DNA from: a virus
Strand: one strand, 5' to 3'
IMG/VR virus record: IMGVR_UViG_3300049171_000040
Span: 1-64,000 of that record
Length of the DNA stretch: 64,000 bases
The translations under genes were made by a program, and so were the position numbers. The notes beneath the pieces are model-generated. The model did not search any database, had not been told where the DNA came from, and was given only the letters and a program-made list of their open reading frames with translations. Positions 33,194 to 35,431 of this stretch are shown here, piece by piece (the first letter of the stretch is position 1; each line of letters starts with the position of its first letter).

Positions 33194-35431
33194 TCAGTCG
33201 ACCTCGGGCCGTCCGAGCATCAGGTGGCGCTGCGCCTCGTCGTCGTAGCCGAGGACACCCGTCTCGCGCAGCTTCTTCAACCGGCCCTGAGCCCACTGCC
33301 TTGTCATGTCCGTCGACGTCCACAACGGACTCAAGTCGCCCGTGGTGAAGTCCCGCCGGCCGTGATCCCACCAGTCCTGCAGCAACTGGACCAGCGCCGC
33401 CAAACGTGCCTCCGGAGTCATCGGCGTCGCCTGCGTGAACTTCCACGGCGGTTCCCCCTCATCCAGGTCGGGAATCTCGTCGTCCAGACCGGCCTGTATC
33501 GATGGGTCCGGGTCGGGTTCGGTCAGATACTCGGCCACCACGTCCTCCTCGGTCTCGTCGTCCGGGTCCTCGTGCGAGCCGCCGCGGATCGCCTGCAGCA
33601 GCTCCTCCAACTCGTCGGGCTGGGTGAGCACGGCAGGTGCACCGCTTTCACGCGGCGGGCCGACCGCGTCACGTCGCCGCAGTTCGGCGATCAGCGCCTC
33701 GGCCTCGGCGAACCCGACCCGGATCTTGCGCTGCAGCATCGACGCCGAAGCGAACTGAGTGTTGACGACCAGCTCGGCCGCCTGCGCGAGAAGGTCAACG
33801 TCGATCGGAGCCGCCGCGGTCACGGGGGCGGCCTGAGGCGAGGCGGTCAGACGAGAGAGAGCGGCGGTCCCTGCGTCCACCTGCTTAGCGGAGGCAGGCC
33901 ACTGTGCGGCGTGTGCCCGCATCGCCTCGTTCGCCCGCTCGTCGTCGAACTCACCCCTGGCGTCGATGCCCCACGCGAAGGTGCGCAGCGGCATCGCATA
34001 CCTGCCGTCCTCGATCGTGGGCGCGTCGAGGTACTGCATTCCGGGCTGCGCGTTGGTCCACAACTCCGGACGGCACTCGGCGTCCTGCTGCCGGTCGCTT
34101 AACCCGAAGGACGCATCGGCGGAGTTCTCTACGCCAAAGCACGCCTTGGCGAGCTGGCCGCGAGCAATCGTCGGCATCTGCGAATAGTCGGACCGCTGCA
34201 ACGACAAGAACACCGACCCGCCGCCAGAACGAATCGCCTTCAGCAGGGACAGGAACCGCTCCTGCTCGGCATCAGTCAGGGCGTCGAAGACGTCGGGGAA
34301 CTCCTCGATCCACAGCACCTGGTACGTCAGCCCGCACCCGGCCTTCCACTTTTGCAGGCCCTTGGCCGCCAGCTTTTCGGTGCGGTCCTTCACCTGGGAC
34401 TGCATCTCGTTCAGCAGCGCCTTGGCACCGGCCTGGGTCGTTTCGAACCGGTGTAGGGCGTCTTCCAGCGGGCCAAGCGTCTGCTTGCCCTTGGTGATGT
34501 CGATCGCGAACACGGCGACGTCATGGCGAGTGATCAGTTCGGCGAGGTAGTTCCATGCCCCGCCGATGCTCTTGCCGGCGCCGGTCATGCCCATGATCTG
34601 CACGTGGTGGCCGACGATGACGTGGCACACCTCGTCGAGGTCCTGCCAGACGCCTGTGCGCAGCGGTTCGGCCACGCTGCCGCCCGGGCGAGACGGGCCT
34701 GGCCAGGCGATGGGCTTCTTCATCACCCGCGCGTCAGAGATCACGACGTTCGCCTTCGATGCGTCGTCCGGGTCGATCGTCGTTGTAATGCTCCCGGGCG
34801 GGAGTTGCATCCCGGATTCGATGTAGCTGACCTTCTTCGTCAGGTCATCTGCCGTCTGTTTCCCCGGCTCAAGCTGCACCTTGCCTTCCACCTTGTGTGG
34901 GGTCGCGGCGGTCGTCTTCGCCTCGATCGCGGGCATCCCGGCACGCTCGGCGCCTTGCCCGAACAGCATCGCGAGCGGGTCGGCGACGACGCTCTGCACG
35001 TCCACCCCCTTGAGACGGATGATCGTGCGGATGTTCCATGTCAACGCCAGGGTTACGCCGCCCACGAGCGCGAGGCGGCCAGTGAAGACGGTGGCCGGCC
35101 CGTTGATGGTGGCGGCGCATACCCACAGGCCGGCGAGCAGGGTCGTGACGGTGGTGTGGGTCCGCCCCCACGGGCCGCGGGCGTGGGACTGGCCGTAGGT
35201 GACGCCAGTGAGGACGAGCACAGCGGCGGCCATCAGGAACATCGTCCAGGCGACCACCTGCGGGTCATCGGAGCGCAGGATGAAGTGGAACGCCGTGCCC
35301 ACGCCATACCCGAAGATGCCGACGACCCACGGCGACATCAGGGCCGCGAGCTTCGACGCTTCCTTCGCCGCGACCTTGGACATGCTCGACTCTGTGTCGA
35401 CGGACACCAGGTCCTTGGTACGCGTCGCCAT
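33194..35431 (-). CDS. traB: TraB-type conjugative DNA translocase (FtsK/SpoIIIE family)
   Basis: N-terminal TMs, Walker A GMTGAGKS, Walker B LWIEE, SLQR, FtsK gamma-like segment and terminal wHTH. Confidence 0.88.
   Translation of the reverse strand: [745 protein letters not shown]

What the first reader, a model, noticed from the sequence alone, without database searches (positions are those of the whole stretch)
33194..33810. TraB with two C-terminal DNA-binding modules: a chromosomal-type FtsK gamma domain plus the TraB wHTH
Seen: after the ATPase comes [39 protein letters not shown]...VGP...VL..PDEL, then an acidic linker and a terminal wHTH. From recall, the first segment closely resembles actinobacterial FtsK gamma (SMLQRKLRVGFAKAGRL), but with acidic substitutions in the recognition helix. 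Established: FtsK gamma reads KOPS and activates XerD at dif. Inference: the domain may have lost DNA reading but could couple translocation to the neighbouring Xer-like recombinase and dif-like site.
Basis: partly seen in the sequence, partly recalled or inferred. Interest (0 to 1): 0.72.

Follow-up and report, generated by a model that had tools for sequence, protein, structure and literature searches.

The report
TraB pump with extra FtsK-gamma domain
The conjugation DNA pump TraB in this phage has a real copy of the "gamma" head of the chromosome pump FtsK inserted before its own DNA-reading tail, and among its relatives this add-on is found together with a small Xer-type recombinase and its dif-like site, which suggests, without proving, that DNA pumping is coupled to site-specific recombination as it is at the cell-division septum.

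Summary
Observation confirmed. The 745-aa TraB (33194-35431, minus strand) carries a Pfam FtsK_gamma domain (51.4 bits, cut-off 30.6). It is a clean ~85-aa insertion ahead of the acidic linker and the terminal winged helix. AlphaFold gives two confident winged-helix modules, and the first superposes on solved FtsK gamma (Z 11.7).

The insertion is optional: 22 of the 120 best homologues have it, patchily on the TraB tree. It is under purifying selection. It adds no second repeat array, because clt 8-mer arrays look alike with or without it.

Here the three positions whose mutation makes E. coli FtsK KOPS-blind read A/A/R (host FtsK: R/D/E). The nine-residue Xer-activating stretch is kept.

A small Xer-like recombinase and/or dif-like site lies within about 2 kb downstream of traB in 6 of 11 gamma-bearing loci and 0 of 49 gamma-less ones. 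However, five gamma-bearing loci lack it, the cassette also occurs with gamma-less pumps, physical linkage confounds the count, and independent contrasts are underpowered (p = 0.125).

The scan noted TraB plus gamma twice before on other DNA. This is a new variant of a known kind.

The parts
33194..35431 (-). traB: FtsK-like conjugative dsDNA translocase, 745 aa, with Walker A GAGKS at residues 284-288
   Evidence: NCBIfam plasmid_TraB scores 384 bits over nearly the whole profile. Homologues are 55-78% identical in Streptosporangiaceae.
33584..33844 (-). Inserted FtsK-gamma module (residues ~530-616; Pfam core 546-603 = 33623-33796). It includes the retained Xer-contact stretch R568-E576 and the altered recognition-helix positions A579, A582 and R585.
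   Evidence: Pfam 51.4 bits. Insertion boundaries come from the alignment with gamma-less homologues. Fold match to 2ve8/2ve9/2j5p at Z 10-11.7. Residue map. dN/dS is 0.19 against L058.
33422..33583 (-). Acidic, proline-rich linker (residues 617-670)
   Evidence: Sequence. pLDDT 58-79 with almost no secondary structure.
33197..33421 (-). Terminal TraB winged helix (residues 671-745), present in all homologues. It is the probable reader of the clt 8-mers.
   Evidence: AF2 gives H-H-H-strand-strand at pLDDT 90-97. Winged-helix matches at Z about 8. The domain is conserved in gamma-bearing and gamma-less homologues. Its helix 3 and wing weakly hit the gamma HMM.
33027..33188 (-). clt-like array: six exact and three one-mismatch copies of GTTGCACC (written on the traB strand), spaced 11-13 bp
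   Evidence: there is no exact copy elsewhere in the 64 kb. The same layout follows traB in gamma-bearing and gamma-less loci.
32536..32937 (-). Small ORF (133 aa) between clt and xer, with no family match and no homologue in the other loci
31550..32539 (-). Small Xer-like tyrosine recombinase (295-329 aa depending on the start)
   Evidence: Phage_integrase 92.6 bits plus a SAM-like N-domain. XerC/XerD models score 158/141 bits, below their cut-offs. Best solved relative is E. coli XerD, 1a0p. Homologues are listed.
31526..31543 (-). dif-like site CGATAAC-GAG-GATTATCA directly after the xer stop codon; it is the only copy in the 100-kb record
   Evidence: The equivalent site is conserved at the same place in the recombinase's homologues.
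31123..31518 (-). HU-type DNA-binding protein gene following the site
   Evidence: Pfam Bac_DNA_binding 89.2 bits. The Xer-HU pair recurs in L108 and L110.

Best explanation
Shown: this TraB is a Streptomyces-type conjugative double-stranded-DNA pump with two tandem winged-helix modules behind the motor.

Inferred: the terminal winged helix, shared by all relatives, reads the phased GTTGCACC array (clt) just behind the gene and loads the hexamer.

The inserted FtsK-gamma module is an optional cassette kept under selection. In this protein it most likely does not read a KOPS-like DNA word. I propose it acts as a protein-contact module for a Xer-type tyrosine recombinase. When the pump meets a recombinase bound to the dif-like site 1.5 kb from clt (the element's own recombinase, or host XerCD in elements that lack one), gamma switches recombination on. 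Copies of the circular element would then be resolved to monomers at the time of transfer, as FtsK does with XerCD at dif.

The architecture, the insertion, the selection and the co-occurrence are shown. The activation step is inferred.
For: - Gamma identity and fold.
- Clean insertion.
- Purifying selection on gamma, including helix 3 and the wing (dN/dS 0.16-0.26 against L058 and L004).
- No second repeat family: clt arrays have the same position, phase and motif family in gamma-bearing and gamma-less loci.
- Residue map: E. coli Q1288/R1289/R1292/I1293/G1294, which contact XerD, correspond to Q567/R568/R571/V572/G573. The 9-mer RQFRIGYNR that suffices to stimulate XerCD corresponds to RKIRVGFAE (host FtsK: RKLRVGFAK). 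The KOPS-blind triple R1300/E1303/E1306, which leaves Xer activation intact, corresponds to A579/A582/R585 against R/D/E in the host (PMC5052618; PMC2680272).
- Co-occurrence: a Xer-like gene and/or dif-like site within about 2.1 kb downstream of traB in OWN, L058, L040, L046, L125 and L006 (6 of 11 unique gamma-bearing loci) against 0 of 49 gamma-less loci.
- The site core occurs 5 times in 1.27 Mb of loci, and 4 of those lie at that place.
- In an even sample of 401 genomes, 3 of 8 gamma-bearing TraBs and 0 of 33 gamma-less ones have the recombinase adjacent.
- These TraBs are only 38-73% identical to this one.
- In L112 a gamma-less TraB element carries an extra FtsK paralogue with a canonical gamma whose stop overlaps the start of the same kind of recombinase.
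Against: - Five of 11 gamma-bearing loci show neither recombinase nor site within 4 kb.
- The recombinase cassette occurs next to gamma-less FtsK-like pumps of other lineages (L109, L110, L113, L115) and in a related prophage with no pump. The genomes holding L108 and L110 have only the chromosomal gamma. Gamma in cis is therefore not needed by the recombinase.
- Gamma, terminal winged helix, clt and xer are contiguous, and the 3' block appears to recombine as a unit. Co-occurrence may be hitch-hiking.
- Independent contrasts go the predicted way in 3-4 pairs and the opposite way in none, but p = 0.125.
- R568 and R571 may be conserved for folding or DNA-backbone contact. In E. coli the XerD and DNA surfaces overlap (PMC5052618).
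- The E. coli XerD acidic pair E183/E184 is not conserved in host XerD of this order, so residue-level transfer from E. coli is unsafe.
- Other gamma types in TraB keep R/D/E and a basic wing and may still read DNA.
Confidence: 0.42

Rival explanations
1. Gamma is a second DNA reader. It recognises a short oriented word other than the clt 8-mer, on the element or on host chromosomes, to load or orient the pump. This could widen what TraB can mobilise.
For: This is the established job of FtsK gamma. Helix 3 is the most variable part among TraB gammas, as expected if specificity diversifies. Several TraB gammas keep the R/D/E positions and the basic wing (P0034, P0032, P0111). Streptomyces TraB is known to act on clt-like chromosomal sequences (PMC3429521).
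Against: In this protein two of the three KOPS-blind positions are alanine and the wing has lost its Lys and Arg (SKAR in the host reads GAPA here). No second repeat family accompanies gamma behind traB. This reading does not explain why the dif-like site and recombinase are seen only at gamma-bearing genes.
Confidence: 0.25
2. Gamma serves another protein contact or a regulatory role. Examples are tuning hexamer assembly, contacting Spd or other transfer proteins, or mimicking or competing with host FtsK at host XerCD-dif. Its nearness to xer would then reflect only that the 3' end of traB, clt and xer travel as one recombination block.
For: The gene is mosaic: the 5' part of traB is closest to L065 and the 3' part plus xer is closest to L058. 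The cassette works without an element-encoded gamma elsewhere. Five gamma-bearing loci lack the cassette.
Against: The association recurs in TraB lineages as far apart as 38% identity, with differently placed sites (after the xer stop in one group, before the xer start in another), which is hard to get by one hitch-hiking event. The L112 case links a separate gamma carrier to the recombinase.
Confidence: 0.22
3. Gamma is a decaying relic of a past recombination with ftsK and has no present function.
For: It is gained or lost at least 8 times on the TraB tree, and gamma-less relatives appear complete.
Against: dN/dS is 0.15-0.46, like the rest of the protein. There are no frameshifts or stops in any of 22 homologues. 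The fold is confident at pLDDT 93-98.
Confidence: 0.05

Closest known systems
TraB of Streptomyces conjugative plasmids and AICEs (pSVH1 type; Vogelmann et al. 2011 as cited in PMC4447253 and PMC3429521)
   Same: It has a membrane-anchored FtsK-like ATPase and a C-terminal winged helix. A phased array of 8-bp direct repeats (clt) lies right behind the gene. The small conserved upstream ORF and a TraA-like gene are also present.
   Different: An extra Pfam-recognisable FtsK gamma domain is inserted between the motor and the terminal winged helix. The gene sits in a 100-kb phage genome with terminase, portal, capsid and tail genes. A Xer-like recombinase and a dif-like site follow clt. The score stays below NCBIfam's equivalog cut-off (384 against 800).
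FtsK-XerCD-dif chromosome dimer resolution (E. coli; gamma structures 2J5P, 2VE8/2VE9, 5DCF)
   Same: The same gamma fold follows an FtsK-type motor. The XerD-contact stretch is retained. A Xer-family recombinase and a site with an ATAA-N6-TTAT core lie nearby.
   Different: The KOPS-reading positions are replaced. Gamma is not terminal. There is one recombinase gene instead of XerC plus XerD. The element is mobile. Activation has not been demonstrated, and the host XerD interface residues differ from those of E. coli.
Gamma-bearing TraB variants already noted by this scan (e1-5925492, e1-5980609)
   Same: The architecture is the same: a TraB tail plus an inserted FtsK gamma. The conclusion is also the same: a recurrent, shuffled variant with altered KOPS-reading residues.
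   Different: Here the link to a neighbouring Xer-like recombinase and dif-like site was tested across loci, and a one-sided co-occurrence was found.

Membership tests
FtsK gamma domain (Pfam PF09397) | Profile match above the curated gathering score | tested here: met
   51.4 bits against a cut-off of 30.6, residues 546-603; 56.2 bits in the genome scan
FtsK gamma domain (Pfam PF09397) | Three-helix winged-helix fold that superposes on solved gamma domains | tested here: met
   AF2 pLDDT 93-98. 2ve8 Z 11.7 and 2ve9 Z 11.6, rmsd 2.0/1.4 A over 66/63 residues, above unrelated winged helices at Z 9.6 or less.
FtsK gamma domain (Pfam PF09397) | Recognition-helix residues needed for KOPS reading (E. 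coli R1300, E1303, E1306) | tested here: not met
   The equivalents are A579, A582 and R585. Chromosomal FtsK of Streptosporangiales has R, D and E (PMC2680272). This lowers the claim 'reads KOPS', not the domain assignment.
FtsK gamma domain (Pfam PF09397) | Xer-activating stretch (E. coli 1289-1297) and actual activation of a Xer recombinase | not testable with these tools
   The sequence RKIRVGFAE is retained (host RKLRVGFAK; E. coli RQFRIGYNR) (PMC5052618). Activity needs an assay.
Streptomyces-type TraB (NCBIfam NF041214) | Full-length match to the TraB profile at equivalog level | tested here: inconclusive
   384 bits over profile positions 4-627 of 639, but the curated cut-off is 800. 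It is a distant subfamily typical of Streptosporangiaceae.
Streptomyces-type TraB (NCBIfam NF041214) | FtsK-like P-loop motor behind membrane helices | tested here: met
   Walker A GAGKS at residues 284-288 and hydrophobic N-terminal segments. Pfam FtsK_SpoIIIE scores only 17.6 bits.
Streptomyces-type TraB (NCBIfam NF041214) | C-terminal winged helix plus an adjacent clt made of 8-bp direct repeats | tested here: met
   (winged helix). (array of nine GTTGCACC-type copies, unique in the window, with the same layout in about 50 related loci).
Streptomyces-type TraB (NCBIfam NF041214) | Transfers double-stranded DNA between hyphae | not testable with these tools
   Needs a mating assay
FtsK/Xer/dif-type coupled system | Gamma-bearing translocase, Xer-family recombinase and dif-like site together | tested here: met
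   All three lie within 4 kb on one strand
FtsK/Xer/dif-type coupled system | Evolutionary co-occurrence of gamma with the recombinase and site | tested here: inconclusive
   6 of 11 against 0 of 49 loci, and 3 of 8 against 0 of 33 in an even genome sample. Independent contrasts give p = 0.125. The cassette also occurs without an element-encoded gamma.
FtsK/Xer/dif-type coupled system | Gamma-dependent activation of recombination | not testable with these tools
   No multimer prediction or assay was available

The most novel reading that the evidence does not exclude
TraB-gamma, the small Xer-like recombinase and the dif-like site next to clt form a conjugative counterpart of FtsK-XerCD-dif. 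The pump loads at clt and moves the circular element. Recombination at the dif-like site is fired only when the pump arrives, which would settle the topology of a circular double-stranded molecule caught in the pore, leaving a monomer on each side. This would address the unresolved question of how closed circular dsDNA passes a TraB ring, and would show that a phage has adopted this machinery.
Probability: 0.18. Interest if true: 0.85.

Novelty: new variant of a known kind. Interest (0 to 1): 0.58.

Why it matters
Streptomyces-type conjugation is understood as a borrowed chromosome-segregation pump, but only the pumping half of the FtsK system has been described for TraB. A subset of TraB proteins carries the very domain that, in FtsK, talks to the Xer recombinases. 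That subset alone is followed by a Xer-like gene and a dif-like site. This suggests the recombination half may have been borrowed as well.

The idea gives a concrete experiment on an open problem: how a circular double-stranded replicon is handled during transfer. The natural A/A substitutions at the KOPS-blind positions also make this protein a ready-made separation-of-function variant. The setting, an apparently complete temperate phage, adds a possible route by which a phage genome could spread through mycelium without virions.

Tried and rejected
The contexts of about a dozen metagenomic gamma-bearing TraBs could therefore not be read. I used the search for related loci and the genome search instead.
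- A plain tblastn for the recombinase under-detected tyrosine recombinases. jackhmmer showed that many loci have a large AICE-type integrase 3-10 kb downstream. Those integrases are unrelated to the small Xer-like type and were not counted.
- I tried to use the E. coli XerD residues that touch gamma (E183/E184, Y187) as a marker. The host XerD of this order does not conserve them, and the phage recombinase's D-E pair is not conserved in its own homologues. I dropped this.
- I looked for a second copy of the dif-like site that would mark the conjugation module as an inserted element. There is only one copy in the 100 kb. My first pattern had the wrong spacer length, so that result is void.
- The region-restricted protein search was swamped by chromosomal FtsK and added only one new gamma-bearing TraB.
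- Cultured phages: only Streptomyces phage Gilgamesh has a distant TraB-like gene, at 24% identity.
- A tree of the 73-residue gamma domains was not attempted as evidence of origin, because it holds too few informative columns.
- The Vogelmann 2011 paper (PMC3117642) is not held. It is cited only through PMC4447253 and PMC3429521.
- The actinobacterial dif consensus is from my memory and was not used as evidence.
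Full report
**What is there.** The window is the first 64 kb of a 100,074-bp IMG/VR virus record. The record encodes a terminase, portal, major head protein, tape measure, minor tail protein and endolysin, followed by a minus-strand block with a conjugation module.

NCBIfam's plasmid_TraB profile aligns to residues 26-733 (384 bits, profile 4-627 of 639, below the equivalog cut-off of 800). Pfam finds FtsK_gamma at residues 546-603 with 51.4 bits against a cut-off of 30.6.

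**Gamma is an insertion.** The 120 best homologues come from Streptosporangium, Nonomuraea, Microbispora, Acrocarpospora, Herbidospora, Sphaerisporangium and Actinomadura. They fall into a 728-768-aa class that carries PF09397 (22 proteins) and a 652-690-aa class that does not.

In an alignment the two classes are collinear, except that residues ~530-616 of the query are missing from the short class. The gap lies between the conserved VDxxTAALSRL segment and the acidic linker. On a tree built without the gamma columns, the trait needs 12 changes, and at least 8 on well-supported branches. It is therefore an optional, repeatedly gained or lost cassette.

**Two winged helices.** AlphaFold2 of residues 521-745, using 43 aligned sequences, gives mean pLDDT 87.6. 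The model shows H-H-H-strand-strand at residues 545-601, a poorly ordered acidic linker, and a second H-H-H-strand-strand at residues 673-738.
- The first module matches solved FtsK gamma domains: Foldseek TM 0.75-0.90; VIA Z 11.7 and 11.6, rmsd 2.0 and 1.4 A over 66 and 63 residues.
- Unrelated winged helices reach Z 9.6 at most.
- The second module matches generic winged helices at Z about 8.
- The gamma HMM also weakly touches helix 3 and the wing of the terminal module. This fits the published view that the TraB tail is itself gamma-like.

**What each module probably reads.** Directly behind the stop codon lie six exact and three one-mismatch copies of GTTGCACC, spaced 11-13 bp. There is no exact copy elsewhere in the window.

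Almost every related locus, with or without gamma, has the same layout: one copy at +3 to +18 and a phased run at about +75 to +165. The motifs belong to one family, mostly GTGGCAC(C) or GTTGCACC. Gamma therefore brings no visible second array. The shared terminal winged helix is the natural reader of clt, as established for pSVH1 TraB (PMC4447253).

**Is gamma alive?** Nei-Gojobori estimates for gamma are 0.19 (against L058), 0.26 (L004) and 0.15-0.46 for other pairs. These are similar to the motor and the terminal domain. No homologue has a broken gamma. It is under purifying selection.

The same table shows a mosaic gene. The 5' two-thirds of this traB is as close to L065 as to L058. Gamma and the tail are much closer to L058 (dN 0.16 and 0.14, against 0.50 and 0.34).

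**Residue reading.** The HMMER alignment to E. coli gamma (2j5p) gives an unambiguous map.
- The residues that contact XerD in the 5DCF structure (Q1288, R1289, R1292, I1293, G1294) correspond to Q567, R568, R571, V572 and G573.
- The nine residues 1289-1297 that suffice to stimulate XerCD when fused to XerC (PMC5052618) read RQFRIGYNR in E. coli, RKLRVGFAK in chromosomal FtsK of Streptosporangiales and RKIRVGFAE here.
- FtsK[R1300A, E1303A, E1306A] is blind to KOPS yet fully supports XerCD-dif recombination (PMC2680272). These three positions are R/D/E in the host FtsK and A579/A582/R585 here.
- The host wing SKAR reads GAPA here.

This TraB thus looks like a natural KOPS-blind, Xer-surface-retaining variant.

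Caveats:
- In E. coli the DNA and XerD surfaces overlap.
- Host XerD in this order does not keep the E. coli E183/E184 pair.
- Other TraB gammas (P0034, P0032, P0111) keep R/D/E or the basic wing.

**The recombinase link.** Downstream of clt lie a 133-aa ORF, a small Xer-like tyrosine recombinase, a site CGATAAC-GAG-GATTATCA directly after its stop codon, and an HU gene. The recombinase scores Phage_integrase 92.6 bits, and its best solved relative is E. coli XerD. The site is the only copy in the 100 kb.

I fetched 55 genomic and 8 viral TraB loci.
- The small Xer-like type is directly downstream of traB in L058 (Streptosporangium album element, recombinase 53% identical) and L040 (Actinomadura scrupuli, 34%). 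Both are gamma-bearing. It is found in no gamma-less locus.
- An even sample of 401 Streptosporangiales genomes gave 8 gamma-bearing and 33 gamma-less TraBs of this lineage. The recombinase is adjacent in 3 of 8 and 0 of 33. The third case, L125 (G336), has a TraB only 38% identical to this one but the same module order.
- L046 has a more divergent small recombinase preceded by a perfect palindrome CCCCCGATAAG-TTCC-CTTATCGGGGG.
- L040 and L125 carry CATAAC-TCCR-GTTATG just before the recombinase start.
- L006 keeps a site with the cassette's flanking GCGATCTTG motif but has no recombinase gene.

Altogether, a recombinase and/or site lies within about 2.1 kb downstream of traB in 6 of 11 unique gamma-bearing loci and 0 of 49 gamma-less loci. 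The core ATAA-N3-6-TTAT occurs only five times in 1.27 Mb of these loci, and four of the five are at that place. A naive exact test gives about 1e-5.

With phylogenetically independent pairs, the cassette goes with gamma in 3-4 contrasts and against it in none. That test cannot fall below p = 0.125 with so few informative pairs.

**Evidence that cuts the other way.**
- Five gamma-bearing loci have no cassette.
- The recombinase family, with its conserved site after the stop codon, is common in the order: 97 of 401 genomes have a match at E of 1e-25 or better.
- It sits next to about 720-aa FtsK-like ATPases of other lineages that lack gamma (L109, L110, L113, L115).
- It also sits, with HU, in a related prophage beside tail and lysis genes with no pump at all (L108).
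- The genomes holding L108 and L110 contain only the chromosomal gamma.
- The recombinase therefore does not need an element-encoded gamma.
- Because gamma, tail, clt and xer are contiguous and seem to recombine as a block, linkage could produce the association.

One further locus points toward a functional tie. In L112 a gamma-less TraB element carries an extra FtsK paralogue with a canonical gamma. That genome has a separate chromosomal FtsK. The paralogue's stop codon overlaps the start of the same kind of recombinase, which is followed by the same site.

**Verdict.** The architecture is real, selected and recurrent. The scan saw it twice before on other DNA. NCBI already labels such proteins 'DNA translocase FtsK' automatically. 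I found no paper describing it.

The new element here is the one-sided co-occurrence with a Xer-like recombinase and dif-like site, together with the separation-of-function look of this particular gamma. I favour Xer activation as the role (0.42) over a second DNA reader (0.25), another protein contact with mere linkage (0.22) or a relic (0.05).

Tallies include two genomes flagged as unpublished (G006, G015). No specific claim rests on them.

Noticed in passing
window 63946-64000 and onward to 64977 of the record (L002:724-1755, + strand): The phage encodes a second FtsK-gamma protein. It is 343 aa, with gamma at residues 260-316 (50.3 bits), a host-like basic wing (GPAEGSKARDVL) and an N-terminal domain with no Pfam match. 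It matches PHROG 6152. Similar ~340-360-aa open frames with gamma occur in G001 (L066) and G371.
   Followed up: partly
L112:1370-7681 (G371 contig 149, 12.6 kb): This conjugative element has a gamma-less TraB (708 aa) plus an extra full FtsK paralogue (725-757 aa) whose gamma is identical in type to the chromosomal one. The paralogue is translationally coupled to a Xer-like recombinase followed by GCCGATAAC-TCG-GATTATCAG. The genome has a separate chromosomal FtsK.
   Followed up: partly
L108-L113, L058, L112; window 31490-31552: The small Xer-like recombinase family carries a conserved site (G/C)ATAAC-N3-GATTAT(C/G) directly after, or overlapping, its stop codon. A conserved GCGATCTTG motif follows about 15-20 nt further on. 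A second subgroup (L040, L125, L046) has a palindromic site just before the start codon instead.
   Followed up: partly
L108 (G264 contig 34): A related prophage has tail and lysis genes 40-49% identical to window 16743-22438. It carries the Xer-HU pair (70% and 54% identical) but no TraB, so the cassette belongs to the phage backbone as much as to the transfer module.
   Followed up: partly
window 33194-35431 compared with L058 and L065: traB is mosaic. The N-terminal and motor parts are as close to L065 (dN 0.16-0.18) as to L058. Gamma, linker and tail are far closer to L058. This implies a recombination break near the start of gamma.
   Followed up: partly
L006:14170-14260 (Herbidospora sakaeratensis): An orphan dif-like site CCCACATAAC-ACC-GATTATGTTGG, with the cassette's flanking GCGATCTTG motif, lies 2 kb downstream of a gamma-bearing traB with no recombinase gene nearby. 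A homologous recombinase lies on another contig of that genome.
   Followed up: no
L109, L110, L113, L115: About 715-725-aa Walker-A proteins with only faint FtsK/TraB profile hits occupy the TraB position, between a TraA-like gene and the Xer-like gene. They look like an undescribed lineage of conjugative translocases.
   Followed up: no
window 42179-43108 (+): There is a second small tyrosine recombinase (309 aa, Phage_integrase 85.9 bits). It is presumably the phage integrase and is only 27% identical to the Xer-like one.
   Followed up: no
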